Part shown: positions 40,913 through 64,000 of the stretch, in pieces
Position numbering within the stretch: position 1 is the stretch's first letter
How the letters are laid out: each line of letters begins with the position of its first letter
Source: Candidatus Moraniibacteriota bacterium
Lineage (GTDB): Bacteria > Patescibacteriota > Minisyncoccia > Moranbacterales > UBA1568
Length of the DNA: 64,000 nt
Reading direction: 5' to 3'
Assembly: GCA_016182385.1 (NCBI GenBank)
Contig: JACPGV010000011.1
Span: forward strand, 22,888 to 86,887
Notes under the pieces: model-generated
What the model was told of the DNA's origin: nothing
The model's input: only the letters and a program-made list of their open reading frames with translations
Database searches by the model: none
Position numbers and translations under genes: made by a program

Positions 40913-41275
40913 TCAATGTTTTTCTTTGACTGGAGGATCATTTTTCCCCTCACCTCGAATCTCAATAATCCCCCGAATCACCGCCATAACAATAAAGTAG
41001 TACGCATACACAGCAAATTCTTCTGCACGTTCTGGCCTCTTCAAAAGATGAAGGATTGGAGTAAATAGAAGAAACAAAAGCGCTGCTCCCGCCAGTAGTC
41101 TACTTGGAATAGGCCCAATAAGTGACCAGATAAAAATCAAAAAGATGATAATTTCTACCATGGTCCAATCAAAATAGACTCCCAAGACTGCTCCTAGCAC
41201 CGGAAGTACAATATCTACTTTTCTAGAGATAACAAAATGCCGTACCCGTCCTTCAAGTTTCTCTTCTGATCCCAT
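40913..41275 (-). CDS. small 4-TM membrane protein (GtrA-like size and topology)
   Basis: ~120 aa from MGSEEKLEG with four predicted TMs; the stop of the upstream YfhO-like gene lies 5 nt before it. The track's longer form (to 41431) overlaps that gene. Confidence 0.35.
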   Translation of the reverse strand: MGSEEKLEGRVRHFVISRKVDIVLPVLGAVLGVYFDWTMVEIIIFLIFIWSLIGPIPSRLLAGAALLFLLFTPILHLLKRPERAEEFAVYAYYFIVMAVIRGIIEIRGEGKNDPPVKEKH

Positions 41276-41279
41276 ACGA

Positions 41280-43460
41280 TTACCGGTTAGATTTATATTG
41301 CCACCTCTTTCTCCACTCACTGGCAAGCAAAATAGAAAGAACAAAAAGACTGACTCCGGTAATCCACATACCGACATATAAGAGACGTGCCGGCAGGTAG
41401 TACAGGGAAACGTTTCCTCCCTTTCGATCACGATCTAATCTCCAGGCATTGGCATGCTGAATGCTGTTGTCCCGAGTCAATGAGACTTTGTTTCCAGCTA
41501 GATCAACATATTCCGCTCTCCAGAGAGAATCGTAGCGCTCATTCAAGAAAATAGTGGCGTCCTGCTTCATATCCACCACCGGTACCATAATTTCTCGTGG
41601 ATTTTTTCTCTGGTATGCCAGTTCTTCTATATTTTCACGTAGCGCCTGTACAGACTGCGAAAGTCCTTCTATTTTCATCGGAACAAATGGGGCATTGATC
41701 CCTACAAATACGTATGGAAACACCCGCTTCTCTTCCAAAGTATAGAGAGTAAAAAAATCATTCTCTTTTACTTTCTGCAACGCTCCAGTTCTTTCAAGGT
41801 ATTCCTTAGCTCCTTCAAATTCTTCTTGATTCTCCTTACGAGTATCCTTATGAAAAAACACATACTCAACCCCTAGAAGACCGTAGAGATCAGTTATCCA
41901 CTGCGGGTCATGCTGACTCTCAAACTCCGTAGCAAACATCCAATGAGGAATGTAGTAGTCATACAGCTCTACGTATTTTTTACTATACAAACGATACGCG
42001 ATATCGGGACCATTGACCTTCCAAGTAGGAAAATTCACTCTCCCGACGCTCGAACCAGGAGCGTACGGCAACATTGCAATCTTACTGTCCTTTTTACTTG
42101 ACTCAATGACTGAAGCGACATCATAATATGCCTGAGGAACCTCTACGAGAGCACTATACTTAGCCTTGGTATAGTCCTTGGCTTTCTGACCAGAAAGAGC
42201 AAAGCTCAATTTTGTCTGAAGGCCGCCTACGTAAAAAGGAAGCGCCAGAATAATCGTCATGAGAAGAAATGAGAGCATAAGGAAACGAGCATACTTCTTT
42301 CCTTCAAATGATTGAAGGAAAAGTAGAAGAAGTCCTGAAAGAAGAAATGGAGTTATCGTAGCCAGCTTATCCCAGCCACGCAAAGTATTGAATCCTGGCA
42401 GAGTGAATAGAAATTCGTTCATAGACTCAAATGGGAAACGCACTCGTGCCACCAGAGCCATGAAAATAAATGTGAGCATGAAAAAGGCACCGAATATCTT
42501 TTGGTCCCTCGAACTCCTTTTCCGAAAGAATCCATACAACGCCAAGAAAAAAGGAATGAAAGCTATGAAGGCTATCACTCTCTTTGCTTGAGAAAAATCT
42601 GGGTATGGAAAATTCATTGGATAATAGCGTTCCTGCTCACTCGTAGGAAGTAATCGAATCGTATCCGAAAAAGCATTCGACGTCTCCCTTAATCGCTCTG
42701 AAAGATCAACAAATTCTGAAGTATAAACTGCTTGTACGCCACCTCGTAGCTGAGGTATCTGTGGCAACAACCAGTAGGTGTTCATGAGAGCCGCTCCAAA
42801 AACAAGCATCCCTATTTTAAGCAAAGTCTGACGATCAAAAGGGATGGAACGGAAAAGAAACAGTGCGAGCGTAAGAAAAAAGAATAAGATACCAAGAGAC
42901 AGAGCAAAAGCCGGATTTCCAAAACTCGTCGAAGCAAGAAAAGCAACCCCCACAAAACCGTAGCTAAAAATTCTCTGAGATGATTCGAGAGCTTTGATAT
43001 ACATCCCTACCAGAAGAGGAATGAATATGTACAAGACCTGATACGAACTATACCCCCAAGCAGCAGTGAAGACATAGAGTGTATAGAGATTCGTAGCGTA
43101 AAAAAGTGCGGAAAGTGACCGTGTCAGTCCAGATGACCTCGAGAACACCAATGCACAAAATGACAGAAACGAAAAAAATGAACCAAGAAGGAATATTCCG
43201 ACATACCAAGAAAGTTGAGCCGTATCACTAATACCTAGTTGGTCAATAATGTAAAAGACGCCATAAAATAATGAAGCGCTGCCGAAAGCATCGTAATGAA
43301 AACGAACAAAATTTTCGGTCATGTTAATAGCCTGAATAACATCCCCGCCAAGCAAAATATGTCTCGCAGGAAAGATATTCATGAGAGTACATAAAACAAG
43401 AAGAAATACTCCTATTGTTTCCCATCGGTACCGAAGTAGAATGTGTCGTACTCTCTCCAT
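41280..43460 (-). CDS. YfhO-like GT-C-fold membrane glycosyltransferase (paralog 1)
   Basis: 726 aa. ~13 N-terminal TMs with an acidic GGDV motif in the first extracytoplasmic loop, a ~300 aa extracytoplasmic domain and a single C-terminal TM (LLYVGMWITGVSLFVLSILL); this is the topology of YfhO/ArnT-type GT-C enzymes. Confidence 0.5.
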   Translation of the reverse strand: MERVRHILLRYRWETIGVFLLVLCTLMNIFPARHILLGGDVIQAINMTENFVRFHYDAFGSASLFYGVFYIIDQLGISDTAQLSWYVGIFLLGSFFSFLSFCALVFSRSSGLTRSLSALFYATNLYTLYVFTAAWGYSSYQVLYIFIPLLVGMYIKALESSQRIFSYGFVGVAFLASTSFGNPAFALSLGILFFFLTLALFLFRSIPFDRQTLLKIGMLVFGAALMNTYWLLPQIPQLRGGVQAVYTSEFVDLSERLRETSNAFSDTIRLLPTSEQERYYPMNFPYPDFSQAKRVIAFIAFIPFFLALYGFFRKRSSRDQKIFGAFFMLTFIFMALVARVRFPFESMNEFLFTLPGFNTLRGWDKLATITPFLLSGLLLLFLQSFEGKKYARFLMLSFLLMTIILALPFYVGGLQTKLSFALSGQKAKDYTKAKYSALVEVPQAYYDVASVIESSKKDSKIAMLPYAPGSSVGRVNFPTWKVNGPDIAYRLYSKKYVELYDYYIPHWMFATEFESQHDPQWITDLYGLLGVEYVFFHKDTRKENQEEFEGAKEYLERTGALQKVKENDFFTLYTLEEKRVFPYVFVGINAPFVPMKIEGLSQSVQALRENIEELAYQRKNPREIMVPVVDMKQDATIFLNERYDSLWRAEYVDLAGNKVSLTRDNSIQHANAWRLDRDRKGGNVSLYYLPARLLYVGMWITGVSLFVLSILLASEWRKRWQYKSNR

Positions 43461-43468
43461 AACATTAC

Positions 43469-44998
43469 TTATCGTAATTTTGAAACACTGGCATGAACAG
43501 AAAACTCATTGAACCCGAAAAACCCTGATGATTTCTCCTCACCTACGTAAGTTGCTTTGACGTAGACTGTTTTCGCTACTCTGTTCCCTGGTAACGTCAA
43601 CAAAAACCGTACCCGCCCAGATGATTCCTCTACAAATGGAATTTCCTGCCAATGTTCCTTATCCAGAGAATACTCCAATTGAATTTCTGACAAATCATCG
43701 CCGTCCTGTTGTGCATCCAAAGCAAAAAATTCGAAGGGACGCCCTGTTTCAAATCGATACATGAGATACTCCCCTGTCTTCTGACTTCCTGTGATAATCT
43801 TCCTCTCCCTGTCGAAGATGATACTTTGACTCGCCTCGTAGAGATTATCATAATCAACTGGGTCGTGTCTCAATTGGAAAGCATAGAGAAGCTTCTTCCC
43901 TAAATCCTCCAACTTCGCTCCATCAGGAAAGCTATCCGCCCCATTCAACCGTGCCCGTTGGCCAATATGCACAAAAAGATCTCCCTTTTCCTTAAATTCT
44001 TTCGGGTCAACCGTCTTCTCCAATTCGCCTAAAGAAAAGAAGTTTTCTGGGTCTTTATCCTTTGGGCCAACAAAATTAAGAGCATACCAGCCGCCCTGTT
44101 TCAAAGGAAAAGAGAAAGGGAGTAGGAAATTACCAGAAAAAATTCTCATACCATTCAAAGCGTCCAATACGAAGGGTATCCTTTGAAGAGGAGCTGATTC
44201 TTTTTCTTTCGTTACACTATTGTAACGAAAGAGTTCAAAAGCATATTCTTGTCTCCCGCCACCATCTATTTTTCCTGAAAATTCGAGCGACCGAATAAAA
44301 TCACCGTCAGCCTGAAAAAGCCATTCTTTTTTCTGAGAGCTTTTATCTATATTATTTACTGAAAAAAGCTCTCGATGACTAGTCTCCGAGATACCATAAA
44401 AAGTAGGCATGAGACTGACTGCTTCAAAGCGAGTCTGCACTTCAAGCGGCGTGATATCAAAAGATTTTATGAAAACTTCTGGATCATACCATTCCATTTC
44501 TGAAACCTCAGAATTCTTTTTCAATCGAATAATAAGGTCCTGATACCTCCCAGGCGTGGAAAAGACTACTTCACGATATTGACCCTTTTCATCTGGTTCA
44601 AAAGTCCATGAGCTGATGGGCAGTATTTCATTTAGGGAAGATCGAGCCAATACCTCGACCTGTTCTTTATCCTTCGTACTCACATGAATGCCCAGGCGAA
44701 AAAAATCATTCGTTCGAGATTCGAAAAAATTCTCATAGATTTTCTCTGGGATTTTTTTAGTAAGATCGGGTCGAAAAACAAAGGCTGATTTTTCCTTCTT
44801 TGATTCAGGCTTCTTCACTACCTGATCAGGTGCTACAGCCTGATGCCAGAGGTAGGCGGTAAGAAAAATAAAAAGAATGAAGAAATAGCGAAAGTATCTC
44901 CCCAAAAAGACTCCCATTTTCCTAATCACTCCGTGAATTTCTTTCATGTTCTTCATTTTGGATATTTTATCAGTTCTGAGATGATTTGTCATGGTCAC
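43469..44998 (-). CDS. hypothetical membrane-anchored extracytoplasmic protein (509 aa)
   Basis: Single N-terminal TM (YFFILFIFLTAYLW), then a ~450 aa soluble domain; sandwiched between, and overlapping, the two YfhO-like paralogs. Confidence 0.45.
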   Translation of the reverse strand: MTMTNHLRTDKISKMKNMKEIHGVIRKMGVFLGRYFRYFFILFIFLTAYLWHQAVAPDQVVKKPESKKEKSAFVFRPDLTKKIPEKIYENFFESRTNDFFRLGIHVSTKDKEQVEVLARSSLNEILPISSWTFEPDEKGQYREVVFSTPGRYQDLIIRLKKNSEVSEMEWYDPEVFIKSFDITPLEVQTRFEAVSLMPTFYGISETSHRELFSVNNIDKSSQKKEWLFQADGDFIRSLEFSGKIDGGGRQEYAFELFRYNSVTKEKESAPLQRIPFVLDALNGMRIFSGNFLLPFSFPLKQGGWYALNFVGPKDKDPENFFSLGELEKTVDPKEFKEKGDLFVHIGQRARLNGADSFPDGAKLEDLGKKLLYAFQLRHDPVDYDNLYEASQSIIFDRERKIITGSQKTGEYLMYRFETGRPFEFFALDAQQDGDDLSEIQLEYSLDKEHWQEIPFVEESSGRVRFLLTLPGNRVAKTVYVKATYVGEEKSSGFFGFNEFSVHASVSKLR

Positions 44999-47471
44999 TT
45001 TTTTGCCTTTTTTCCTTTTTTAGAGCTCTTTTTACCAAAAGCAGCGAGTACCAAAGGAGACCGAGACCGGAAATAATTATCCCAATATATGAGACCCTCT
45101 GAGGCCAAAATTCTATAATCACTTCGACATCCTGAGTTTCATCTTTATTCTTCAGACAACTCTCAGACTGTTCCTGGCATATAGCATCTATATCAAGAAC
45201 CCAGGCGTTGGCGTAACCATTGACCACAAGTTGTCTATTCTTAGTATCGAGAGGTTCTTGAAACCACGTTTCAGAAAAGCGAGCCTCTACGAGATTATCA
45301 TTTTGAACGGTGTTAAAGAACTTTTTTGAGACAAAATCGATAGAAAATTTCTCGATAAAATCAATCTTCCCTCGATAGTCATCCCATTTTTTGTGAACAA
45401 TACTTTTTTCTTTTCCGTCTCCCAGCTCCGTGACACTCCCCTCGTTTACGAGCCTCACAAGTTCATCGCTATCAGCCTGAAAATATTTATTCTTTTCCAA
45501 TATCTTGTATTCCTTCAGTCGAGAGAGGAGTGACCCACGATCCTGATAAGAACTCTTTTTTTCCGCCAAGTATATGTTCCAATCTTTATGATACTGTTCG
45601 CTCAAAACCAGCACGACGTTCCCCTGTGCACCGTGCAAACGTACTCGATACTGCGTCGGATTGATTTTCTTGTACTCAACACTCGCCCCGGAGAAAATTC
45701 CTCCTCTGTCTATATCAGCATTTATCTCATTATCCTGAAACGAAACTTTCCGCTCAGCATGACGAATAGGCGAGTTATCAAGAAGTATTTGCGTTAATGG
45801 TGCGTCATCAAAGGTACCAATACTTTCGGCCGTATACAACTGTGGTAAAAATTCGTTTCGATCGACATACTGAATAGAGAGAAAACCCTCTTGAAAAGCC
45901 GGTACTGTATTCTTCACATAATAAACAATTTTGTTCATCAAGGAAGCGTCTTCGAATATGAAACCAACTGCATGATTCGAGAGACTCCCGAGAACCTTGT
46001 CATACCCCAAGTTATAGTTTGTGTACAAGAAGTTGTAGATAATTGGCCCAAAGAATCCCCACTGGGTATTGAGGTACGTCAGATCACTGTTGGGATAGAA
46101 CGTCCGGACGTTCATTTTTTGGTAATCAATAAACTCGCGCACCTTGTAATACTCATTTGGGATATGAAAACCACGTTGCTGAATGTTCGTATATTGGTTG
46201 ATCCCGTTGAAATTTTTATAGTACTCCCCGTTCCAGTATGGGTATCCGACATAGATCGTCACAACAAGTATAAGAGAGCTAAAAAAGAACCGTTTTCTTG
46301 GAATTTGTTCGACAAAGAAAAACAAAAGGAGCGCATAAAATACCGAGAGGAAAAAAACTGCTCCCGCTGTCGTTCGCAAAAAGGCTAACAAAGGCACACT
46401 CGCAACAAAGTGCTCATACATCTGCCCAAAAGGCTTATTTGGTCCCGCAGCAAAAAAGAGATAGATGACAAGAAGAAGCCAAACGATGATCTCGTCTCTC
46501 TTATCTACATTGTGTTCGGAGTGAATAATAAGCAGTCGTGCAAAGATGATAAAGACAAAGAAATAGCTCAGGATCAAAATGAGAGCACTCGAATTATAGG
46601 AAAGAACATCCAGATGATTCAGAAAGATAGAATCTTGATGAAGCTTCAATATCTTATCCATGGTATCCACGCCGAAATTCATCATCTTGCCAATATCCTT
46701 GTACCCCGACTTCACTTTTACCCCATAGTCGATGGGATCATAGTTTAAGGTGAAATTTGCTAAAGGCAAAAATAAATAGGCCGAAAGAACAAAGGCGAGT
46801 GAAAATTTTATGAACACCTTTCGCAGCTCTACACCAGTAATTTTTTGAAGACTCCAATTAGCAAAGAAAATAATTGCTGAGATGAGAAAAAGATGAAAAA
46901 GGTACTTCGGGTTCGGTAGATCTAGAGAGCAAAAAGCCAGTATCACATTTAACCAAAGTGCCGTTCCGATGGTGACGTCTTTCTCCTTGACGATCCTAAA
47001 AATGAAATAGATGAACCAAGGAGTAAAAGCGTACACAAATATGTAATGGTAGGCATTGAGAAGAGCTGGGGAGAGGAGATAGAACACGATCGGCACCAAG
47101 AGTTCTAGTCGTTGCGCCTTTGGGGAAAAAAGCTGAGCCAGTTTGTAAATACCAAATCCCGCAATCAACGTTAGAAAAAATAATAAGACTGCAGAAATAA
47201 AAAGGATATTACCCGTAAAAAGCTCGGCCACCCAGTACATGATGTAAAAAACATAGTAGTTCACGGCGAAGTATTGGCCATTTTTCATCTCTATCCACTG
47301 ATAGAGATATTTTTCCAGCCCCTCACTGTTGAATGGTATGAGTACATCGCCCCCGATAGAAAGACGCCCCCAAGTATAAAAAGCTGGTAACAGTGCTAAC
47401 CCAAAAATAACCAGTTCGGGAGAGTACCGAACGAGCAACCTCAAAAATGTCTTCCAAATCTCTCGGTTCAT
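44970..47471 (-). CDS. YfhO-like GT-C-fold membrane glycosyltransferase (paralog 2)
   Basis: 833 aa; same architecture as 41280..43460. The N-termini are alignable (LLVRYSPELVIFGLALLPAFYTWGRLSIGGDV vs ILLRYRWETIGVFLLVLCTLMNIFPARHILLGGDV); C-terminal TM IGIIISGLGLLWYSLLLV. Confidence 0.5.
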   Translation of the reverse strand: MNREIWKTFLRLLVRYSPELVIFGLALLPAFYTWGRLSIGGDVLIPFNSEGLEKYLYQWIEMKNGQYFAVNYYVFYIMYWVAELFTGNILFISAVLLFFLTLIAGFGIYKLAQLFSPKAQRLELLVPIVFYLLSPALLNAYHYIFVYAFTPWFIYFIFRIVKEKDVTIGTALWLNVILAFCSLDLPNPKYLFHLFLISAIIFFANWSLQKITGVELRKVFIKFSLAFVLSAYLFLPLANFTLNYDPIDYGVKVKSGYKDIGKMMNFGVDTMDKILKLHQDSIFLNHLDVLSYNSSALILILSYFFVFIIFARLLIIHSEHNVDKRDEIIVWLLLVIYLFFAAGPNKPFGQMYEHFVASVPLLAFLRTTAGAVFFLSVFYALLLFFFVEQIPRKRFFFSSLILVVTIYVGYPYWNGEYYKNFNGINQYTNIQQRGFHIPNEYYKVREFIDYQKMNVRTFYPNSDLTYLNTQWGFFGPIIYNFLYTNYNLGYDKVLGSLSNHAVGFIFEDASLMNKIVYYVKNTVPAFQEGFLSIQYVDRNEFLPQLYTAESIGTFDDAPLTQILLDNSPIRHAERKVSFQDNEINADIDRGGIFSGASVEYKKINPTQYRVRLHGAQGNVVLVLSEQYHKDWNIYLAEKKSSYQDRGSLLSRLKEYKILEKNKYFQADSDELVRLVNEGSVTELGDGKEKSIVHKKWDDYRGKIDFIEKFSIDFVSKKFFNTVQNDNLVEARFSETWFQEPLDTKNRQLVVNGYANAWVLDIDAICQEQSESCLKNKDETQDVEVIIEFWPQRVSYIGIIISGLGLLWYSLLLVKRALKKEKRQKSDHDKSSQN

Positions 47472-48325
47472 GCTTTTTTATAGAGGGCGTAAAAAGTAGG
47501 ACTCAGGAAGTCTAGTATCTTAAGAGCGACTAAAGAGAAGGAAACAATGAGTGGAATATTCTGGAGTTTCCCCAATTGGTTCCGCACCAACGTCTCTTTG
47601 TTAAGCGTCGGATATTTAAACAACACTTCTTCAAATCCATTCTTGCGCATCAATCGCCTGAGCCGATACGGGTTCGTCAGATTAACGTGCAGGCTCCGAT
47701 CGTGCTGATTCGCCTCACGCACTGCTTTCCAAGTACGAATGCCAAATATAATATGAATGAAATCAAAAACTGGACGGATAGTATTTAGGTAGAATGTATT
47801 ATCTGTGTGCACCACAATAGAGACGTCACTCCCCCACCCTCTAATCTGGGAAAGTACCAATTCAATTTCCGGATCATACATATGCTCTACGACATCTGCT
47901 AAATACACGGCTTTGATGTTCGAAAAGTCATGTTGGTAGTCATTGTTTGTATTGATAAAACGCATTTTTCCCGTATACTGAGGAATCATTTGCAGCTTTT
48001 CCTGGCAGATATCAATAGCACTCTTAGAGTAGTCTATTCCTGTACAATCACAGCCGTATCGAGAAACAAGAAAAAAAGCCAAGTCTCCATTGCCGCATCC
48101 ATAGTCCACAATCCTATCAGTTGGCTGAAGTTTGAGAAGATTTGCCATCTCGGAAAATATCGTAAGATGCCCAGTTTTGAAATACGTCCCATCTTCAGAA
48201 AGTATTGACCGCCCATAGGCATTCTGATAATACGCTTTGCTATAGAGATTGGAATCGACTTGTTCCATAGATTTTCTTTTTATGAATTCAATGCTTCGTA
48301 TTCCTTGGTCACAACCACATCCCAA
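47468..48325 (-). CDS. class I SAM-dependent methyltransferase
   Basis: Motif I VDYGCGNGDLA, acidic motif II and motif III (AVYLADVVEHM) in a Rossmann-fold MTase; 4-nt overlap with the downstream YfhO-like gene. Confidence 0.75.
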   Translation of the reverse strand: MGCGCDQGIRSIEFIKRKSMEQVDSNLYSKAYYQNAYGRSILSEDGTYFKTGHLTIFSEMANLLKLQPTDRIVDYGCGNGDLAFFLVSRYGCDCTGIDYSKSAIDICQEKLQMIPQYTGKMRFINTNNDYQHDFSNIKAVYLADVVEHMYDPEIELVLSQIRGWGSDVSIVVHTDNTFYLNTIRPVFDFIHIIFGIRTWKAVREANQHDRSLHVNLTNPYRLRRLMRKNGFEEVLFKYPTLNKETLVRNQLGKLQNIPLIVSFSLVALKILDFLSPTFYALYKKA

Positions 48326-52915: not shown

Positions 52916-52916
52916 A

Positions 52917-54056: not shown

Positions 54057-54060
54057 ATAA

Positions 54061-57320: not shown

Positions 57321-57826
57321 AAATTTTTTAAGATATTTTTTACTTGGCTGTATCTTAGAACGTGATCCGCATAATGTTCCCGCGTTACAAGTTCTTTTAT
57401 CTCAAACTTCTTCCAATATCGATAGAAAAATGAGTACGCTTTAAAACTCATACCTGGATTGATATAACAATCGGTTACAAGATGAAAAAAAGCCCCGATA
57501 GTTACCCCCCACATCAAAGCTCGTGACTCCCCCGAGACCTCAATACTCACTATAACGATTATCAATAGTATAACGTATTCCCACCCGTGAAACAACACGT
57601 AAATCTTGTCATTTTTAAAAAATTGATACCCTTTTAGAAAATGGGTGAGTCGGAAATTTCTTCCAAAAGCGATAAAATAATCAATAAAATGATCCACATC
57701 AATCAAAACGCCGCCAAAAAACGCCGCCAAAAAAGAAATGGGCTGATAACCAAAGAAAAACCACGTAATAACTCCGGCTAAAAGAGAAAGAAAGAAATGA
57801 AGAAACAGATGAAACATTAAACTCAT
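57317..57826 (-). CDS. hypothetical polytopic membrane protein (possible membrane-bound metal-dependent hydrolase, YdjM-like)
   Basis: 169 aa with ~5 TMs and conserved His/Asp (LHFFLS...[11 protein letters not shown]...FHGWEY...FHLVTDCY). Confidence 0.35.
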
Positions 57827-57862: not shown

Positions 57863-59572
57863 CTATCGATTGACCGCGCTATCCTCAAGACGCACGGCAT
57901 CCTTTTCCTTGTCTACAGAGGTTTTTGATTTGAAAAAATGACCAGTAAGTTTGCCAAAAACATTCTTCCAAAATTTCTTTGAAGTAAAGCTCACATTTGT
58001 TTTTGTTTGATTTGGATCAAAGTCAAGCAAATGCCCTATAAGTCTCTTTCCTGCTGAATAAAAAAACTTCAAATCATCAATGCTACGAATACTTATAATT
58101 TTTCGAAAAATGAATCGTGGAGAGAAAAAGGCCGAATAAAGATCCTGGGTCAAACTCAAAAGCTGTTCCTGAGTCAAGGGAATCTTCATAACTGATCCAC
58201 GCATATCATAATCATCATAATCTTCCGTTACCAAGAGTCCTTTTTCCTTACACTCTTTCCACAGAGGGGTTCCCGGATACGGAACAACGATCGTCGCCTG
58301 CATGGTGGCAAAATATCCCTTCTTAAAACAGTATTTAGCTACGGCAATGGTCCGTTTCGAATCTTCATAATCTTCCCACGGATATCCAAGCATAATGGTA
58401 GCATGCGGCTCAAGACCAGCCTTTGAAGCCATGCGAGCGCCATTAATAGTGTCAGCTTCTTTTGTTCCTTTATCAAGCTTATCAAGTGTTTTTTGGTTTC
58501 CCGACTCCATTCCATACAAAATAAAACGAAACCCTGCCTTCGCCATGAGATTATAATATTCTTGATTCAAAGCATTAAACCGCATATTACAACCATAAAT
58601 AACCTTTTTGTTGTAACCACTCTCAATCAACAGCTCACAAAATTTCTTGAGTTTTGGACCAATAAAAAGTGTGCCGGCATCATCAAAAATTTCCCGAATA
58701 CCATATTTATCCACTACATGTTTCACCTCTGCAAACAAGCGTTCGGGAGAAAAGCTCCGATACGTACCAAGAGGATTGATCGTATGATCCCATACACAGA
58801 ACGTGCAACGATTCCACCAACAATCACGGCCACTGTACATATACGTTCCTGGTGTATATTTGTAATTTCCGTTTTCATAGGCGTACAATTCCCAACGAGT
58901 CAAATCCCGATCAATAAAAGGCAAAGCATCGAGAGCATGTCGCACCCAATCCGGACCAGAACTATAAATTTTTTCACCTGATGGCAAAGTTGTGGTTTCT
59001 TTTGGAGTGACTTTTATCTCAGTATTTCCTTCACGCCAATATACTCCCCCCTCAAGTTCTTCTCCTCGATAAATATGATTCAAGAGATTTACAATCAAAA
59101 AATCATAATCACCGCCTCGTAAAATATAGTCTATCTTGCTATTTTCAAATTGCTCAAGCGGCATGAAAGTAACATGATCTCCCACCCAAATAAGTTTGAG
59201 GTGCGGCAATTTTTCTTTCAAATCATTAATTTGCTTCCAATGTCTTTTAATAACCGGTGATTTTGATTCTACAAGTAAATACTCGGCCCCCGTGGCGCGA
59301 AGCTCATCAACCCACTGATCATATTCTTTATGCTCAGAAATACCATCCATCCAATAAACTTTATACCCTTGATCCTGAAGATACGAGGCGGCATAAGCAG
59401 GCACCATCGGATAAATGTATGTGGGGGCATTGAAATATTGAAACTGCCGGTTCTGACTCAGAAGTGCTACTCCTTTCTCTGATTTTATAGGCGGATATCC
59501 CACCGCCACCACTATTTCTTTTGGAAGAGGTATCAGATTTTTCTTTTCTTCTTTTGTCTCGCCAGTGTTCAT
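57863..59572 (-). CDS. B12-binding domain radical SAM protein (class B radical SAM, putative methyltransferase)
   Basis: N-terminal Rossmann-like cobalamin-binding region, Cys cluster SGRDCWWNRCTFCVWD, and a downstream radical-SAM TIM-barrel (GYPWE... glycine-rich SAM motifs); ~570 aa from MNTGETKEE (ATG at 59572). The track's 59692 start overlaps the ferredoxin gene. Confidence 0.7.
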   Translation of the reverse strand: MNTGETKEEKKNLIPLPKEIVVAVGYPPIKSEKGVALLSQNRQFQYFNAPTYIYPMVPAYAASYLQDQGYKVYWMDGISEHKEYDQWVDELRATGAEYLLVESKSPVIKRHWKQINDLKEKLPHLKLIWVGDHVTFMPLEQFENSKIDYILRGGDYDFLIVNLLNHIYRGEELEGGVYWREGNTEIKVTPKETTTLPSGEKIYSSGPDWVRHALDALPFIDRDLTRWELYAYENGNYKYTPGTYMYSGRDCWWNRCTFCVWDHTINPLGTYRSFSPERLFAEVKHVVDKYGIREIFDDAGTLFIGPKLKKFCELLIESGYNKKVIYGCNMRFNALNQEYYNLMAKAGFRFILYGMESGNQKTLDKLDKGTKEADTINGARMASKAGLEPHATIMLGYPWEDYEDSKRTIAVAKYCFKKGYFATMQATIVVPYPGTPLWKECKEKGLLVTEDYDDYDMRGSVMKIPLTQEQLLSLTQDLYSAFFSPRFIFRKIISIRSIDDLKFFYSAGKRLIGHLLDFDPNQTKTNVSFTSKKFWKNVFGKLTGHFFKSKTSVDKEKDAVRLEDSAVNR

Positions 59573-59585
59573 ATTGAATTTGATG

Positions 59586-59846
59586 TTATTTTTTTGGATA
59601 AATTTTTTCACCGCCCTGATATACTTCGATCGCCAACACCGAACAAGATTGAGCCGCTTCAATAATTTTTTCAAGACTATCCCAGTCGCCATCTTTTATA
59701 ATGGCAATATTTTTTTCATCAAGATCAAAAGTTGACGGACTATACACGACACACGTAGCGGCACCGACACACTTTTCTCTCAAAATACGAATTTCAATAT
59801 CGCCTTTTTTTACTATCTGGAGAGCCTCATCTTGTTGCATAAACAA
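59586..59846 (-). CDS. ferredoxin (single-cluster Fe-S, Fer4-like)
   Basis: 86 aa; CVGAATCVVYSPSTFDL ... AAQSCSVLAIEV, the C-x5-C...C-(P) pattern of mono-cluster [3Fe-4S]/[4Fe-4S] ferredoxins; 13 nt upstream of the radical SAM gene. Confidence 0.55.
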   Translation of the reverse strand: MFMQQDEALQIVKKGDIEIRILREKCVGAATCVVYSPSTFDLDEKNIAIIKDGDWDSLEKIIEAAQSCSVLAIEVYQGGEKIYPKK

Positions 59847-59931
59847 ACATCACCCGAAACATCGAGACGTCATCAAGAATTACCAAGATACAATACCACA
59901 AAAACTCAATCTTTACTAGAAAACAAGAATC

Positions 59932-60909
59932 CTAACGAAGCTTGCTTTTTAAGTTTCGCACCAACAAAAATCCAATAAGAAAATAAAAGCCGTAAACCAA
60001 ATGAGTGAAGAATATATAGTAAAGAGCATTGAAAAGAATGAAAGTATTTTTCTCAAACCGATACATATCCAGAAAAGATAGGAAAAGAGCTCCCCCGTAT
60101 AAAAACCACCCTATTTCATACCAAAAAAGAAAATGCGGGAAAAGAAAAATCGATCCAGTCCCTACTGTCACAAAAAGAAAAAAGAATGAGGGAATAAAAT
60201 ATTTGATACGCAATGACGTTTCCGGAAATTTTTTCGCGAAAAAACCTCGGTGCAGTCCATACCCATGCACTTGTTTCATATGTCGAAAAAATCCCTCTCG
60301 TCGATGATGATAAACATGAAGCGAAGGATCATACAGGATCTTTCCTTTTAATTTTTTTATAATATTCAAACACAGTTTCGTATCCTCTCCAGGCCAAAAT
60401 CCACAATCAAATCCATCAACATCAGCAAACGCCTGCTTTCGAATAGAAAGATTGACGCTCGGCCAATCGTCAACTAATCGTTTCTTTCCAACAGGCACAT
60501 AACGTTCTGGGGAACCACCGGAGAGAGAACTTAAAAAAACCGCCCCAGACACTTTCTGCCAAAAACTATCATGGGAAGGAGTAATAGCCGGTCCTCCAAC
60601 AGCGATAATAGAAGGATCGGAAAAATCATGATCCAAAATATCCAAAAAATTTTTTTCTGGATAAGCATCGTCATCGACAAAAATAAGTATTTCGCCCACC
60701 GCATCACGTATGGCGAGTGTTCGCTTCTCAGCCGGTCCGCAATGCCCGGTAGCTATTTGTCTTGTTTTTTGCCATGTTTCAGAAGTCGCCTTATCGGGAT
60801 AAATGATAATTTCATAATCATCACGAGATATCTCGAGTGTTTTTGGTACAGCCTCACGAATATAATCATTTATCTCCTTTACTGGAATAATAAAACTGTA
60901 TCGTATCAT
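59932..60909 (-). CDS. glycosyltransferase family 2 (GT-A) with C-terminal TMs
   Basis: FIIPVKEINDYIREAV, the FVDDDAYP D-x-D region and four C-terminal TMs; 325 aa. Confidence 0.75.
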   Translation of the reverse strand: MIRYSFIIPVKEINDYIREAVPKTLEISRDDYEIIIYPDKATSETWQKTRQIATGHCGPAEKRTLAIRDAVGEILIFVDDDAYPEKNFLDILDHDFSDPSIIAVGGPAITPSHDSFWQKVSGAVFLSSLSGGSPERYVPVGKKRLVDDWPSVNLSIRKQAFADVDGFDCGFWPGEDTKLCLNIIKKLKGKILYDPSLHVYHHRREGFFRHMKQVHGYGLHRGFFAKKFPETSLRIKYFIPSFFFLFVTVGTGSIFLFPHFLFWYEIGWFLYGGALFLSFLDMYRFEKNTFILFNALYYIFFTHLVYGFYFLIGFLLVRNLKSKLR

Positions 60910-60911
60910 AG

Positions 60912-61868
60912 CTACACAATGGCAAGTTTATGACGAAAATAATCAACTGTTTTTTGAAGCCCTTCATCAAGTTGCACTTTCGGCTCCCACCCATCAAGCT
61001 TTTCTTTCGCAAGAGCAATATCCGGATTTCGTTGTTTCGGATCGTCGGGCGGAAGATCTTTGTATACAATTCTGCTTTTACTTTCCGGAATAAAATGAAG
61101 GATTTTCTCAGCTAACTCTTTTATGGTGAATTCATTCGGATTGCCGATATTTACAGGACCGACAAATCCATCTTGATTCATCATTCTCATCATACCCTCA
61201 ATCAAATCATCTACATACTGAAAACTTCTTGTTTGAGATCCATCACCATAAATGGTAATATCTTCATTTTTTAAAGCCTGAACAATAAAATTTGACACTA
61301 CCCGACCATCATAAGGATGCATATTTGGTCCATACGTATTAAAAATACGAATAACACGAATATCTACTTTATTTTGACGATAGTAATCAAAAAAAAGCGT
61401 TTCCGCGCAACGTTTTCCTTCATCATAACAGGAACGGAAACCGACGGGATTAACATGTCCCCAATACGATTCTTTCTGCGGTGTGATTTCAGGATCGCCA
61501 TACACTTCCGAAGTAGAGGCTTGAAGAATACGTGCTTTGGTACGTTTTGCCAAACCAAGCATATTAATCGCTCCATGAACAGATGTTTTCGTAGTTTGCA
61601 CCGGATCAAATTGATAGTGAATAGGTGAGGCAGGACAAGCAAGGTTATAAATTTGATCCACTTCTACATACAGAGGAAAAGTAACGTCATGACGCATCAA
61701 ATCAAAACGCGGACAAGTCAAAATATCTAAAATATTATTCTTGCTTCCAGTAAAAAAATTATCAACACACAATACATCGTGTCCCTCTTTCAAAAGACGA
61801 CGACACAAATGAGAGCCTAAAAACCCCGCTCCACCTGTAACCAAAATTTTTTTTTCCGTCATATACAA
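60912..61868 (-). CDS. UDP-glucuronate decarboxylase (UDP-xylose synthase)
   Basis: [40 protein letters not shown] and the YDEGKR catalytic region, alignable end-to-end with UXS/ArnA-decarboxylase-type SDRs; 318 aa. Confidence 0.85.
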
Positions 61869-61907
61869 AACCTTTTCTTTTTAACGAAAATTAATCTTTT
61901 CTCGAAC

Positions 61908-61980
61908 AATGTACAACGGGCGATTAATGACTTCGTTGTGAATACGAGCGATTGCGTCATGACCTTATTATAGTTCATTT
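61908..61980 (-). pseudogene. remnant 3' end of a GtrB-like GT2 gene (duplicated fragment)
   Basis: Minus-strand reading gives ...GHDAIARIHNEVINRPLYIVREKINFR*, a near copy of the C-terminus (IARIHNEVINRPLYIVREEINGIEQ) of the GT2 gene at 63633. 41/45 nt are identical to 63666..63710. Confidence 0.5.
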
Positions 61981-61997
61981 TCTGATGAGATTCCAAT

Positions 61998-62264
61998 TTA
62001 TACCATATCTGAGCCTATATCTATACTTTTGACACTTTCTTTTCTCTGCCTTATACCACACTTGAAGTATTTGAGAGAGGCCGTCGACCGTTCAGAGGAT
62101 AGCCCTCTTTCTTTTTTCCTGTTTTTACTGTCTTTATCTACGAAGATATTGAATGACTGGTTCCGAAAACCTTCACAAAAACTTTTTACTCCGATCTGCT
62201 GTTTGAAAAAATCGACCAACTCTTTTTTATATTTTGAAGGAGTTTCTACCAATCCGTATTCCAT
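61998..62264 (-). CDS. hypothetical protein (88 aa), possibly a gene fragment
   Basis: ORF with a protein-like N-terminus (MEYGLVETPSKYKKELVDFFKQQIG) and a low-complexity C-terminus; lies inside the repeat-flanked insert. Confidence 0.2.
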   Translation of the reverse strand: MEYGLVETPSKYKKELVDFFKQQIGVKSFCEGFRNQSFNIFVDKDSKNRKKERGLSSERSTASLKYFKCGIRQRKESVKSIDIGSDMV

Positions 62265-62353
62265 TTTGAGATCATAATAAGTATCTCATTTAAGGAAAAG
62301 CTGCCTTCATCCGTTCTCCTCCACATACTTCTTACAATTTTTTCCTAATCATT

Positions 62354-63523
62354 TCAGTAAAAATTATCCACCGTCAATAATTTGACTTTCGCTTCGGAAT
62401 ATCTGTTCTTGAAAGCCTTGTTGATAGCTTTTCGCTTGTATTTAATCTCTACTCCGATAATTTCGCTACCTTTTTCCAGTACAACATCTATCTCGGAACC
62501 CTGCTTCGTTCTCCAATAATAAAATTTAAAGCCTCTATCAGAATAGCTGTCCTGTTTTATCAATTCACTGATTATGAAATTTTCAAACAAAGATCCTTTA
62601 TCCACTCTCGAATTCAAATCGGAAAAATCCTCAATCAAGGCATTTCTCACGCCAGTATCGTAGAAAAATATCTTTGCTGATTTCGATATTTCATCTCTTT
62701 TCCTTTTTGAATACGGATATAATCGAAACAAAATGAAGCTCTGCTCAAAAATCTCAATATACCTTTTGACAGTCCGCTGGTCAGTTTTCAAACTACTGGC
62801 CAATTCAGAATAATTTATAAGATTGCCAATCTGGAAAGCCAGAAGTTTCAATAAATTCTTAGCAAGCTTCTTATCCTCAATCAAATGTAATTCGAGAATG
62901 TCCTTGAAAATCAGACTATCCACAAAATTCAACAAGTATTTCTCATCATTCGGATATTTGATAAAATGAGGATACTGTCCATACACCAGAACACTATCCA
63001 GTATGTTCTTTATATCAAACGCATAGAATTGCTCTTTTGGGTTATCTTTTTCATCATCAATAATTTTTTCAAGAATGTTAAAATTCAAACTCTTCTCAAT
63101 ACCCTTCTGGTTCAGATATTCAGAAAAAGTAAGCGGGTAAATATTATAATCGATTTTTCTCCCCGCGAGACTCTCACCCGTCTTGTTTTTTATATGAAAA
63201 GAAGATGATCCGGTGATAATAATCCTCAGATTATTCATCTGATCATACAATATCTTTATAGCTCTTCCGGGATTGTCAAGCAGATGAATCTCATCGATGA
63301 TAATCTCTTTTGCCTTCTTATTTATAATTGTTTTATATGTCTCTATATCATATGTCTCCAATATCTTCTTGATCGGCTCATTATCCACAAGAAAATACTC
63401 CGCGTTCGGAAATATCTTTTTGACTATAGTTGTCTTTCCAGCCTGTCTCGATCCAAGCAAAATAAGTACTTGTTCGTACTTTTTAAAGTGTTCACTCATT
63501 TGGAAATCAAGATGTCTTTTCAT
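62354..63523 (-). CDS. AAA-family ATPase with C-terminal DUF4143 domain
   Basis: Walker A LLGSRQAGKTT, Walker B IIIDEIH; C-terminal region typical of the widespread archaeal/bacterial DUF4143 ATPases; 389 aa. Confidence 0.8.
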   Translation of the reverse strand: MKRHLDFQMSEHFKKYEQVLILLGSRQAGKTTIVKKIFPNAEYFLVDNEPIKKILETYDIETYKTIINKKAKEIIIDEIHLLDNPGRAIKILYDQMNNLRIIITGSSSFHIKNKTGESLAGRKIDYNIYPLTFSEYLNQKGIEKSLNFNILEKIIDDEKDNPKEQFYAFDIKNILDSVLVYGQYPHFIKYPNDEKYLLNFVDSLIFKDILELHLIEDKKLAKNLLKLLAFQIGNLINYSELASSLKTDQRTVKRYIEIFEQSFILFRLYPYSKRKRDEISKSAKIFFYDTGVRNALIEDFSDLNSRVDKGSLFENFIISELIKQDSYSDRGFKFYYWRTKQGSEIDVVLEKGSEIIGVEIKYKRKAINKAFKNRYSEAKVKLLTVDNFY

Positions 63524-63632
63524 AAAAAATATGTCTTTTCGTGTATTATATGTATAAAAAGATATATCTAATTATACATAATAAGGAATATTTGTCAAAT
63601 TCAAACAATACGACAGTCCGTCACTAACGATC

Positions 63633-64000
63633 CTATTGTTCAATACCATTTATCTCCTCCCGCACGATGTAGAGCGGGCGATTGATGACTTCGTTGTGAA
63701 TACGAGCGATATAAAGAGTAATAAAACCAAGAGAAATGAGAACGATGCCGATCAGAAACATATTACTGACACCAAGGATGGCAATGGGCGTAAACATGCC
63801 AGGTGCAAAAAACCAATCCGCAACAAGCATCATCGCAAGCAAGAGTCCGCTTATGAGCGTAATACAAATACCCAAATATCCGGCTAAACGAAGAGGGAGA
63901 AGTGAAAACGATGTAAGACTATTTATCGCCAAACGAACAAGCTTTACATAAGAATATCCAGCATTGCCGTAGAGACGCTCTGGAGCCACGAATTCTATCT
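63633..64000 (-). CDS. glycosyltransferase family 2, GtrB/CsbB/DPM1-like polyprenyl-phosphate sugar transferase; C-terminal ~120 aa only (gene continues beyond window end)
   Basis: Two C-terminal TMs (LLPLRLAGYLGICITLISGLLLAMMLV; ILGVSNMFLIGIVLISLGFITLY) followed by IARIHNEVINRPLYIV, the C-terminal layout of GtrB-type GT2 enzymes. The reading frame is open to the window edge. Confidence 0.55.
   Translation of the reverse strand, partial: IEFVAPERLYGNAGYSYVKLVRLAINSLTSFSLLPLRLAGYLGICITLISGLLLAMMLVADWFFAPGMFTPIAILGVSNMFLIGIVLISLGFITLYIARIHNEVINRPLYIVREEINGIEQ

What the first reader, a model, noticed from the sequence alone, without database searches (positions are those of the whole stretch)
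40913..64000. 21-kb co-directional glycan island: GtrB-like GT2, GtrA-like protein and two YfhO-like GT-C paralogs, with nucleotide-sugar, C-methylation and O-methylation genes
About 19 minus-strand genes run from 61868 to 40913 with short overlaps or gaps, which is operon-like. Together with the partial GtrB-like gene at the window end they read as an extracytoplasmic glycosylation system of the GtrA/GtrB/YfhO type, as in B. subtilis CsbB-YfhO LTA glycosylation. The GtrB-like GT2 at 63633+ would make a polyprenyl-P-sugar; the small 4-TM GtrA-like protein (40913-41275) would assist flipping; the two paralogous YfhO-like 13+1 TM GT-C enzymes (41280-43460 and 44970-47471) would transfer it outside the cell. 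Around them are precursor and tailoring genes: UDP-xylose synthase, two Gmd copies, an Rmd-like reductase, a TylCIII-type sugar C-methyltransferase, a B12-radical-SAM enzyme with a ferredoxin, three class-I methyltransferases, three GT4 enzymes and a GT2. This is a large investment for a reduced genome. It implies a heavily C- and O-methylated deoxyhexose/xylose surface glycan (S-layer glycan or lipoglycan) that could mediate host or episymbiont attachment.
Basis: partly seen in the sequence, partly recalled or inferred. Interest (0 to 1): 0.8.

Follow-up and report, generated by a model that had tools for sequence, protein, structure and literature searches.

The report
Surface-glycan island with AftD-like transferases
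A tiny-genome Moranbacteria (CPR) bacterium carries a real gene island of at least 27 kb for a methylated deoxy-sugar surface glycan; the island ends in a conserved, unannotated four-gene module whose two large membrane proteins are distant relatives of the mycobacterial cell-wall enzyme AftD, not YfhO, and whose small protein is not GtrA.

Summary
The gene run is real: 19 minus-strand genes from 61868 to 40913, with gaps of 91 nt or less. Most enzyme calls hold: UDP-xylose synthase, Gmd, a second Gmd-like gene, a Glu-less Gmd-like reductase, a TylC3-type C-methyltransferase, a radical-SAM enzyme with ferredoxin, three class-I methyltransferases, three GT4 and one GT2. The window-edge fragment is a GtrB/ArnC-type enzyme.

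The order GT-C A, CBM-like anchored protein, GT-C B, small membrane protein recurs in about 25 Patescibacteria loci. It is usually followed by an ArnC-type GT2 and Ugd.

An identical contig extends the island upstream with Wzm/Wzt, a Wzx-like protein and the full GtrB gene.

Best reading: the glycan is assembled in the cytoplasm and exported by the ABC transporter. The AftD-like module then elaborates it outside the cell from polyprenyl-phosphate sugar. This is a new variant of a known kind.

The parts
63633..64000 (-). 3' part of a GtrB/ArnC/PgfS-type polyprenyl-phosphate glycosyltransferase gene. The full gene encodes 316 aa and runs off the window end.
   Evidence: PDB 5ekp GtrB E 6e-14 and ArnC E 5.6e-10. 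The full-length copy on the identical contig L006 scores PgfS 240 bits and ArnC 173 bits.
61967..61996 (-). Promoter-like site (10 of 12) in the gap upstream of the first gene of the 19-gene run.
   Evidence: This is a consensus match only.
60912..61868 (-). UDP-glucuronate decarboxylase (UDP-xylose synthase).
   Evidence: Human UXS1 (4gll) E 8.5e-119 over the full length. Pfam Epimerase/GDP_Man_Dehyd.
59932..60909 (-). GT2 glycosyltransferase with C-terminal transmembrane segments.
   Evidence: Pfam Glycos_transf_2. MftF-like, 78.8 bits. Hydropathy.
59586..59846 (-). Small 4Fe-4S ferredoxin.
   Evidence: Pfam Fer4_15 and Fer4_13.
57863..59692 (-). Radical-SAM enzyme with a weak B12-binding domain. 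The likely start is 59572 (569 aa).
   Evidence: Radical_SAM 54.4 bits. B12-binding 24.7 bits, below the cut-off. HpnJ-like 142 bits, far below the equivalog cut-off. Gene call from L006.
57317..57826 (-). 169-aa membrane protein with no family match.
   Evidence: No Pfam or NCBIfam hit. Three hydrophobic segments.
56277..57320 (-). GDP-mannose 4,6-dehydratase (Gmd).
   Evidence: TIGR01472 582.9 bits, above the cut-off of 415. The TSE and YxxxK motifs are present.
54999..56249 (-). NDP-hexose 3-C-methyltransferase (TylC3/TcaB9/KijD1 type).
   Evidence: Pfam Methyltransf_13 and Methyltransf_14. PDB 4rv9 TylC3 E 1.5e-57.
54061..55002 (-). Gmd-family SDR that lacks the dehydratase Glu; a probable 4-ketoreductase (Rmd-like).
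   Evidence: gmd model 209.7 bits against a cut-off of 415. The motif reads AASSL where the Gmd copies read ASTSE, and YxxxK is kept.
52917..54056 (-). GT4 glycosyltransferase.
   Evidence: Pfam Glycos_transf_1 and Glyco_transf_4.
51935..52999 (-). Second Gmd-like dehydratase. The likely start is 52915 (326 aa).
   Evidence: TIGR01472 405.8 bits, just under the cut-off of 415. TSE motif kept.
51183..51923 (-). Class-I SAM methyltransferase.
   Evidence: Pfam Methyltransf_23/12/31.
50059..51159 (-). GT4 glycosyltransferase.
   Evidence: Pfam Glycos_transf_1, 105.6 bits.
49440..50075 (-). Class-I SAM methyltransferase.
   Evidence: Pfam Methyltransf_23/12/11.
48280..49425 (-). GT4 glycosyltransferase.
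   Evidence: Pfam Glycos_transf_1, 80.1 bits.
47468..48325 (-). Class-I SAM methyltransferase. The likely start is 48268 (266 aa).
   Evidence: Pfam Methyltransf_25/23. Orthologs are 266 aa.
44970..47471 (-). GT-C paralog A (833 aa), AftD-related; this is the variable slot of the module. Asp42 is kept in loop 1. Gly370 stands where AftD has the essential Lys361.
   Evidence: hhalign against paralog B: probability 99.96%, E 9e-39. The family has 6378 clusters. A profile of wider relatives hits AftD 6w98 at E 6.5e-14. Pfam GT-C_AftD in relatives. Residue counts.
43469..44998 (-). 509-aa protein with an N-terminal membrane anchor and extracytoplasmic beta-sandwich domains that look like CBMs (tentative).
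41280..43460 (-). GT-C paralog B (726 aa), AftD-like; this is the conserved slot of the module. Asp40, Arg361 and Lys365 are invariant.
40913..41275 (-). 120-aa membrane protein with about 4 hydrophobic segments. It is a conserved last gene of the module and is not a GtrA family member.
   Evidence: 55% identical ortholog at the same position. Found after paralog B in nearly all loci. hhalign against a true GtrA gives probability 0.18%. No GtrA Pfam hit.

Best explanation
This is the distal 21 kb of a cell-envelope glycan island of at least 27 kb in a Candidatus Moranbacteria genome.

Shown:
- Sugar-nucleotide genes are present. They are expected to supply GDP-4-keto-6-deoxy-mannose (Gmd, two copies), a 3-C-methylated branch (TylC3-type methyltransferase), a reduced 6-deoxyhexose (Glu-less Gmd-like reductase) and UDP-xylose (UXS).
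- There are three GT4, one GT2, three class-I methyltransferases, and a radical-SAM enzyme with ferredoxin.
- The last four genes form a module conserved across Patescibacteria: AftD-related GT-C paralog A, a membrane-anchored CBM-like protein, AftD-like GT-C paralog B, and a small membrane protein.
- Just beyond the window end, an identical contig adds GT4, Wzm/Wzt, a Wzx-like protein and the complete GtrB-type gene.

Inferred mechanism:
1. A methylated 6-deoxyhexose-rich glycan is built on a lipid carrier at the cytoplasmic face by the GT4 and GT2 enzymes.
2. Wzm/Wzt exports it.
3. The GtrB-type enzyme charges polyprenyl phosphate with a single sugar.
4. That lipid-linked sugar is flipped. 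The overlapping Wzx-like gene is a better candidate for this step than the 120-aa protein.
5. The two GT-C paralogs transfer the sugar onto the exported polymer outside the cell. They probably work as a complex with the CBM-like protein, which would hold the acceptor glycan, and with the small membrane subunit. The loop-1 Asp would be the catalytic residue.

Paralog A and the CBM-like protein diverge fastest. They are therefore the likely specificity-determining parts.
For: Gene content and order.

Sequence homology to AftD: the A7 profile hits 6w98_A at E 6.5e-14 over the whole GT-C domain, and the next hit is at E 0.13. Ten of 40 relatives hit Pfam GT-C_AftD, best 2.1e-14.

Residues: the loop-1 Asp is present in 88 of 90 members, and Lys365 of paralog B aligns with the essential Lys361 of AftD (bioRxiv 10.1101/2019.12.22.885152).

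Module synteny: seen in every locus with enough room.

Donor supply nearby:
- A GtrB/ArnC-type GT2 lies near the module in 15 of 18 loci with downstream room, and Ugd within 6 kb in 16 of 18.
- The Wzx-GtrB pair sits directly beside the module in L020.

Exporter: Wzm/Wzt and Wzx lie upstream on a contig 100% identical to the window.

CBM link: the 509-aa protein resembles CBMs, and some relatives of paralog A carry a CBM_4_9 domain in the same chain.

Variability: identities to the window proteins are 21-38% for paralog A and 21-46% for the CBM-like protein, against 31-58% for paralog B.
Against: - No biochemical, expression or glycan data exist. Donor, acceptor and linkage are all unknown.
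- In this genome the GtrB gene is separated from the run by an ATPase gene with its own promoter-like site.
- The ArnC-type GT2 and Ugd pair that follows the module in most relatives is absent from the window.
- Paralog A has Gly where AftD has an essential Lys, so it may be inactive or may work differently.
- The CBM assignment rests on a low-confidence model (pLDDT 58).
- Complex formation among the four proteins is inferred from synteny alone.
Confidence: 0.6

Rival explanations
1. The GT-C pair acts as a ligase or oligosaccharyltransferase. It would move the finished, exported glycan (or single sugars) onto a protein such as an S-layer protein, a pilin or a Ser/Thr-rich membrane protein. 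This would resemble PglB/AglB, or the streptococcal Pgf system (PgfS plus the two GT-Cs PgfM1 and PgfM2).
For: - The best NCBIfam match of the GtrB gene is PgfS, at 240 bits.
- The Pgf system also pairs a GtrB-type enzyme with two GT-C paralogs and glycosylates proteins (PMC11092751).
Against: - AftD is the best match by both structure and sequence, and it acts on polysaccharide.
- The PgfS score is far below that family's cut-off of 500.
- CBM-like domains, in the neighbouring protein or fused in relatives, point to a glycan acceptor.
- No candidate acceptor protein gene lies inside the module.
Confidence: 0.2
2. The four-gene module is a housekeeping machine for a conserved envelope polymer, and its donor derives from UDP-glucuronate. 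The route would run from Ugd, with or without UXS, through an ArnC-type GT2 to polyprenyl-phosphate pentose or uronic acid. On this view the module is only a neighbour of the variable deoxyhexose genes, not a functional partner.
For: - The module plus the ArnC-type GT2 (PDB ArnC, E 1e-46) and Ugd are conserved across loci, while the upstream gene sets differ.
- LPG_synthase_TM and PMT_2 genes also recur downstream.
Against: - The module always sits at the 3' end of, and co-directional with, a glycan gene cluster.
- In the window the methyltransferase gene overlaps paralog A by 4 nt.
- Paralog A co-varies with the upstream gene set: 59% identity in L034, which shares the window's upstream genes, against 21-38% elsewhere.
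Confidence: 0.15
3. This is the first reader's model taken literally: a classical GtrA/GtrB/YfhO three-component system like B. subtilis CsbB-GtcA-YfhO. The 120-aa protein would be the GtrA flippase and the two large proteins would be YfhO-family enzymes.
For: - A GtrB-type gene is present.
- The large proteins are GT-C with a C-terminal extracytoplasmic domain and a final TM helix.
- A published review reports AftD among the top HHpred hits shared by the GT-C enzymes of such systems, YfhO among them (PMC8035078). The two families therefore look alike at fold level.
Against: - No YfhO (PF09586) hit in 130 family members, even at lax thresholds.
- No GtrA (PF04138) hit for the small protein, and hhalign probability 0.18% against a true CPR GtrA.
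- A true GtrA gene exists elsewhere in a related locus (L005).
Confidence: 0.05

Closest known systems
AftD, the mycobacterial alpha-(1->3)-arabinofuranosyltransferase (PDB 6W98; Pfam PF11847 GT-C_AftD, formerly DUF3367)
   Same: - GT-C membrane domain followed by a soluble extracytoplasmic domain and a return into the membrane.
- Significant profile-to-sequence match over the whole GT-C domain (E 6.5e-14).
- An Asp directly after TM1, and, in paralog B, a Lys aligned with the essential Lys361 of AftD.
- CBM-type domains associated with the enzyme.
   Different: - About half the size (726 and 833 aa against about 1400 aa), with a single C-terminal TM helix rather than five.
- The window proteins themselves do not reach any Pfam threshold.
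- CBM-like domains lie in a separate neighbouring protein rather than in the same chain.
- The enzymes always occur as a pair of paralogs plus a small membrane protein.
- Paralog A has Gly at the Lys361 position.
- No decaprenyl-phosphate-arabinose pathway (UbiA-type PRPP transferase, DprE1/DprE2) was seen nearby. A GtrB/ArnC-type synthase is there instead.
CsbB-GtcA-YfhO and related multi-component transmembrane glycosylation systems of Firmicutes (PMC8035078, PMC5836110)
   Same: The logic is the same: a GtrB-type GT-A makes polyprenyl-phosphate sugar, a flippase moves it across the membrane, and a GT-C transfers it to an envelope polymer outside the cell.
   Different: - The GT-Cs are not YfhO family members and the small protein is not GtrA.
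- There are two GT-Cs and an extra CBM-like subunit.
- The module is embedded in an ABC-transporter-type polysaccharide locus.
Streptococcus mutans Pgf system (PgfS, PgfE, PgfM1, PgfM2; PMC11092751)
   Same: A GtrB-type synthase, which is the best NCBIfam match of the window's gene, is paired with two GT-C paralogs.
   Different: - The Pgf GT-Cs carry the YfhO domain and glycosylate Ser/Thr-rich protein regions with GalNAc.
- Here the family is AftD-related and has CBM-like partners.
- The PgfS match scores 240 bits against a cut-off of 500.
Pseudomonas aeruginosa common polysaccharide antigen (D-rhamnan) locus and related ABC-transporter-dependent O-antigen or S-layer glycan loci (from my own knowledge, not tested here)
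   Same: Gmd plus an Rmd-type reductase, several GT4 enzymes, Wzm/Wzt export and SAM methyltransferases that could modify or cap the chain.
   Different: Those loci have no GT-C module, no C-methyltransferase and no radical-SAM enzyme. The envelope context also differs.
TylC3, TcaB9 and KijD1 sugar 3-C-methyltransferases (PDB 4RV9, 3NDI, 5T64)
   Same: Full-length similarity (E 1.5e-57) and the same Methyltransf_13/14 architecture.
   Different: The known enzymes act on dTDP-linked 4-keto sugars in antibiotic pathways. Here the gene sits between Gmd and a Gmd-like reductase, which suggests a GDP-linked substrate. That is an inference.

Membership tests
GT-C fold glycosyltransferase superfamily | Multi-pass membrane domain with the GT-C fold. 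| tested here: met
GT-C fold glycosyltransferase superfamily | Conserved acidic residue in the first extracytoplasmic loop after TM1. | tested here: met
   Asp40 in paralog B and Asp42 in paralog A. The column is Asp in 88 of 90 sequences. It lies directly after helix 12-27 of the model.
GT-C fold glycosyltransferase superfamily | Uses a polyprenyl-phosphate-linked or diphosphate-linked sugar donor. | not testable with these tools
   There is only contextual support: GtrB/ArnC-type genes lie next to the module.
AftD family (Pfam PF11847 GT-C_AftD) | The protein itself matches the family model above threshold. | tested here: not met
   The window proteins have no hit at E <= 0.01. Only 1 of 46 relatives of paralog B and 4 of 44 relatives of paralog A give weak hits, best 0.009.
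AftD family (Pfam PF11847 GT-C_AftD) | Homology to AftD detectable by profile or through intermediate sequences. | tested here: met
   The profile of wider relatives of paralog A hits AftD 6w98_A at E 6.5e-14, with profile positions 16-552 aligned to residues 18-545. Ten of 40 such relatives hit PF11847, best 2.1e-14.
AftD family (Pfam PF11847 GT-C_AftD) | Equivalents of the residues essential in AftD (K39, D41, E251, K361, D474). | tested here: inconclusive
   Lys365 of paralog B aligns with K361, but paralog A has Gly370 there. Asp40 falls within two positions of D41 in the automatic alignment. E251 and D474 could not be mapped (bioRxiv 10.1101/2019.12.22.885152). No coordinates were available for a superposition.
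AftD family (Pfam PF11847 GT-C_AftD) | Large soluble domain with three CBMs in the same chain, and a C-terminal bundle of five TM helices. | tested here: not met
   The proteins are 726 and 833 aa with one C-terminal TM helix. CBM-like domains lie in the separate 509-aa protein. Some relatives do carry CBM_4_9 in the same chain.
YfhO family (Pfam PF09586) | Match to the YfhO model. | tested here: not met
   No hit in either window protein, in 90 relatives at E <= 10, or in 40 wider relatives at E <= 0.01.
GtrA family (Pfam PF04138 GtrA_DPMS_TM) | Match to the GtrA model or to a bona fide GtrA. | tested here: not met
   No hit in 5 orthologs at E <= 10. hhalign against the GtrA of locus L005 gives probability 0.18%. 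Only the size and the roughly 4 hydrophobic segments resemble GtrA.
GtrB/ArnC/DPM-synthase-type polyprenyl-phosphate glycosyltransferases | GT2 catalytic domain followed by the characteristic C-terminal two-TM region. | tested here: met
   The in-window fragment matches GtrB 5ekp residues 221-328 at E 6e-14. The full-length gene on the identical contig scores PgfS 240 bits and ArnC 173 bits over residues 4-311.
GDP-mannose 4,6-dehydratase (TIGR01472) | Score above the equivalog cut-off, with the catalytic Thr/Glu and Tyr-x3-Lys. | tested here: met
   56277-57320 scores 582.9 bits against a cut-off of 415. 51935-52915 scores 405.8 bits, just below. Both have ASTSE and YxxxK. 54061-55002 fails, with 209.7 bits and Glu replaced by Leu.
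UDP-glucuronate decarboxylase (UXS) | Full-length, high-scoring similarity to characterised UXS. | tested here: met
   Human UXS1 E 8.5e-119, 400 bits, residues 4-315. The next family, GalE-like, scores only 132 bits.
Class B (cobalamin-dependent) radical-SAM enzymes | Radical_SAM domain plus an N-terminal B12-binding domain. | tested here: inconclusive
   Radical_SAM scores 54.4 bits, above its cut-off. B12-binding scores 24.7 bits, below its cut-off of 32.1. The best NCBIfam match is HpnJ at 142 bits against a cut-off of 577.

The most novel reading that the evidence does not exclude
Patescibacteria possess a widespread and so far unannotated envelope-building machine. The paralog A family alone has at least 6378 clusters at 50% identity.

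The machine would be a heteromeric complex of two AftD-related GT-C enzymes, a CBM subunit supplied as a separate protein, and a small membrane protein. It would polymerise or branch a pentose-type or uronic-acid-type glycan outside the cell, from a polyprenyl-phosphate sugar made from UDP-glucuronate (Ugd, then UXS, then an ArnC/GtrB-type synthase).

This would be a CPR counterpart of mycobacterial arabinan assembly, reached through a GtrB-type rather than a PRPP-type donor pathway. Paralog A and the CBM protein would set strain-specific glycan structure.
Probability: 0.2. Interest if true: 0.75.

Novelty: new variant of a known kind. Interest (0 to 1): 0.5.

Why it matters
CPR/Patescibacteria make up a large share of bacterial diversity, yet their envelope chemistry is almost unknown and few are cultured.

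This work shows that a very large family of "hypothetical" membrane proteins in these organisms are AftD-related GT-C glycosyltransferases. They are organised in a conserved four-gene module at the end of variable glycan loci. That gives a concrete, testable handle on how ultrasmall episymbionts build and diversify their surface. The handles include which residues to mutate, which partner proteins to co-express and which donor pathway to assay.

It also corrects two tempting but wrong family labels, YfhO and GtrA.

The underlying principle is already well established: a lipid-linked sugar and a GT-C enzyme acting outside the membrane. The finding therefore extends a known theme rather than opening a new one.

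Tried and rejected
- **Sequence searches against PDB.** Searches with the close-family profiles A1, A2 and the merged A4 found nothing. Only the wider-family profile A7 reached AftD.
- **Foldseek against afdb50.** The library was unavailable, so no direct structural comparison with predicted YfhO models was possible.
- **Contig look-ups.** The look-up for the 100%-identical NCBI protein P0001 failed. P0097's contig returned genes but no DNA.
- **The 509-aa protein.** It has only 7 detectable homologs, so its model is poor. I used its CBM matches only as a tentative lead, supported by CBM_4_9 domains fused in relatives.
- **Cluster-member names.** The names of distant relatives were uninformative.
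- **Literature.** Searches for CPR with GT-C, AftD or S-layer glycosylation returned nothing relevant.
- **Promoter and terminator scans.** Totals are at chance level. Only the positions of the two perfect matches and one 10/12 match in intergenic gaps are used, and only as hints.
- **Rfam and tRNA scans.** Nothing was found in the island.
- **Horizontal transfer.** I rejected the idea that the island is a recent transfer. Its GC content (0.38-0.45) is like the rest of the window; only 62-64 kb is lower, at 0.353.
- **GacJ-like activator.** I rejected a GacJ-like activator role for the 120-aa protein as a family assignment, because it has no family hit. Such a function is not excluded.

Full report
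**Origin and layout**

The window comes from a Candidatus Moranbacteria (Patescibacteria/CPR) genome. The 726-aa protein is 100% identical to an NCBI MAG protein annotated only as hypothetical.

From 61868 down to 40913 there are 19 consecutive minus-strand ORFs. I took gene starts from an independently assembled contig, L006, which is 100% identical to window 52354-64000. With those starts, spacing ranges from a 29-nt overlap to a 91-nt gap.

Promoter-like sites are at chance frequency overall. However, a 10/12 match sits in the gap just upstream of the first gene (61996-61967). Perfect 12/12 matches sit upstream of the two neighbouring units, at 63598-63571 and 40831-40803. The operon-like layout is therefore real. 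Co-direction by itself is weak evidence, because nearly the whole window is transcribed from the minus strand.

**Enzyme assignments that hold**

- 60912-61868 is a UDP-xylose synthase (human UXS1, E 8.5e-119).
- 56277-57320 is a bona fide Gmd (582.9 bits against a cut-off of 415). 51935-52915 is Gmd-like, just below the cut-off at 405.8 bits.
- 54061-55002 belongs to the Gmd family but reads AASSL where both Gmd copies read ASTSE. It keeps Tyr-x3-Lys. From my knowledge of E. coli Gmd, that Glu is the dehydration base. I therefore read this protein as a ketoreductase of the Rmd kind. This is an inference.
- 54999-56249 is a TylC3/TcaB9-type sugar 3-C-methyltransferase (E 1.5e-57).
- 57863-59692 is a radical-SAM enzyme with a sub-threshold B12-binding hit, preceded by a ferredoxin gene.
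- The fragment at 63633-64000 is the C-terminal two-TM part of a GtrB/ArnC-type enzyme. On L006 the complete 316-aa protein matches PgfS (240 bits) and ArnC (173 bits) over its full length.

**Labels that fail**

The 120-aa protein has no GtrA signal:
- There is no Pfam hit in five orthologs, even at E <= 10.
- hhalign probability is 0.18% against a true GtrA from a related CPR locus.

The 726-aa and 833-aa proteins match no Pfam or NCBIfam model. None of 130 relatives hits YfhO.

**What the large proteins are**

- *Paralogy.* Each has 75-95 close homologs, all unannotated. Profile-profile comparison shows they are paralogs over 655 columns (probability 99.96%, E 9e-39).
- *Family size.* A profile search of 1.84 billion representatives shows that the paralog A family is very large: 6378 clusters at E <= 1e-3 and 1074 at E <= 1e-30.
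- *Pfam bridge to AftD.* Ten of 40 of the more distant members hit Pfam GT-C_AftD (best 2.1e-14), and five carry CBM_4_9 domains.
- *Direct profile hit on AftD.* A profile of those members hits AftD itself at E 6.5e-14 across the whole GT-C domain. The next PDB hit is at E 0.13.

The family is therefore a divergent branch of the AftD lineage by both fold and sequence.

**Catalytic residues**

An Asp directly after TM1 (Asp40 or Asp42) is present in 88 of 90 members. This is the position of the GT-C catalytic acid, and it lies within two residues of AftD Asp41 in the automatic alignment.

AftD's essential Lys361 (bioRxiv 10.1101/2019.12.22.885152) aligns with the invariant Lys365 of paralog B. 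In paralog A of this clade the same position is Gly370. I could not explain this difference.

**The conserved module**

The order is paralog A, a ~500-aa anchored protein, paralog B, then a ~110-135-aa membrane protein. This order is found in every related locus with enough flanking sequence. There are about 25 distinct Moranbacteria, Parcubacteria and Patescibacteria contigs, with paralog B at 31-58% identity to the window protein.

*Downstream genes.* Of 18 loci with at least 5 kb downstream:
- 16 have Ugd within 6 kb.
- 15 have a GtrB/ArnC-type GT2. One of these matches ArnC at E 1e-46.

The window genome is an exception, because an AbiEi/AbiEii pair follows the module. In L020 a Wzx-GtrB pair abuts the module directly.

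*Upstream genes.* The upstream sugar genes differ between loci. L034 shares the window's upstream gene set, and it is the only locus whose paralog A is close to the window's (59%, against 21-38% elsewhere).

*Variable and conserved parts.* Paralog A and the anchored protein (21-46% identity) are the variable parts. Paralog B and the small protein are the conserved parts.

**Beyond the window**

L006 shows that the island continues upstream with a GT4, Wzm/Wzt (galactan or teichoic-acid exporter type), a Wzx-like protein whose gene overlaps gtrB, and then gtrB itself. An AAA_14/DUF4143 ATPase gene lies between that unit and the 19-gene run. It has a perfect promoter-like site and sits in a stretch of lower GC content.

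**Most likely mechanism**

The steps below are inferred unless marked as shown above.

1. A 6-deoxyhexose-rich glycan carrying C-methyl and O-methyl groups is assembled in the cytoplasm by the GT4 and GT2 enzymes.
2. Wzm/Wzt exports it.
3. The GtrB-type enzyme loads a sugar on polyprenyl phosphate.
4. A flippase moves the lipid-linked sugar across the membrane. The Wzx-like protein is a better candidate than the 120-aa protein, and reviews note Wzx-type substitutes for GtrA (PMC8035078).
5. The AftD-like pair adds the sugar to the exported polymer outside the cell, helped by the CBM-like subunit.

The rivals are protein glycosylation of the PglB or Pgf type (PMC11092751) and a housekeeping polymer that is independent of the upstream genes. 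Neither is excluded.

**Verdict**

Its family names do not. The system is a new architectural variant of the known lipid-linked-donor/GT-C theme, found in a poorly understood phylum.

Noticed in passing
window 62354-63523 (with 61998-62264 and the promoter-like site at 63598-63571): An AAA_14/DUF4143 ATPase gene and an 88-aa ORF lie between the GtrB gene and the 19-gene run. They sit in the lowest-GC part of the window (0.353), behind a perfect 12/12 sigma-70-like site. This looks like an insertion that splits the glycan island.
   Followed up: partly
window 39362-40769 (promoter-like site at 40831-40803): An AbiEi-like/AbiEii toxin-antitoxin pair, with a perfect -35/-10 match and a TG extension, directly follows the module. 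Most relatives have an ArnC-type GT2, Ugd, GT4, LPG_synthase_TM and PMT_2 genes at that position. No Ugd or ArnC-type gene is present anywhere in the window.
   Followed up: partly
window 44970-47471, residue 370 of the 833-aa protein: Paralog A of this clade has Gly (LRTTAG) where paralog B has Lys365 and AftD has the essential Lys361. In other genomes the paralog A slot is filled by a Lys-containing type (FKSPLEKF). Two different versions of paralog A therefore occupy the same module position.
   Followed up: partly
window 57317-57826: A 169-aa membrane protein lies between the radical-SAM gene and Gmd. It has no family match, and in the fetched loci it has no homolog outside the identical contig. 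Its gene overlaps Gmd by 4 nt.
   Followed up: no
window 57863-59846: The longest radical-SAM ORF (609 aa) would overlap the ferredoxin gene by about 100 nt. The gene call on the identical contig starts at 59572 (569 aa), which removes the overlap. Similar start ambiguities affect 51935-52999 and 47468-48325.
   Followed up: yes
loci L008, L013, L014, L020, L021, L024, L026, L027, L029: MAG records titled 'uncultured Bdellovibrionales' or 'Pseudobdellovibrionaceae' carry the same module, with 35-54% identity to the Moranbacteria protein. These titles are probably taxonomic mislabels of Patescibacteria bins.
   Followed up: no
loci L001, L003, L005, L034 (about 5-10 kb downstream of the module): An LPG_synthase_TM (MprF flippase-like) gene and one or two PMT/PMT_2 GT-C genes recur downstream of the module. 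L005 also has a true GtrA gene there. This suggests a larger conserved envelope-glycosylation neighbourhood.
   Followed up: no
proteins P0221, P0237, P0243, P0295, P0298, P0299 (distant relatives of paralog A): Some family members are 1000-1400 aa long and carry a CBM_4_9 domain between the GT-C domain and the conserved C-terminal domain. One member of the scanned set also matches class-I methyltransferase models; it is probably P0221, which JGI annotates as a methylase.
   Followed up: partly
window 22394-24328: A 644-aa minus-strand ORF next to an FtsA/PilM-like gene has no Pfam match at E <= 1e-5.
   Followed up: no
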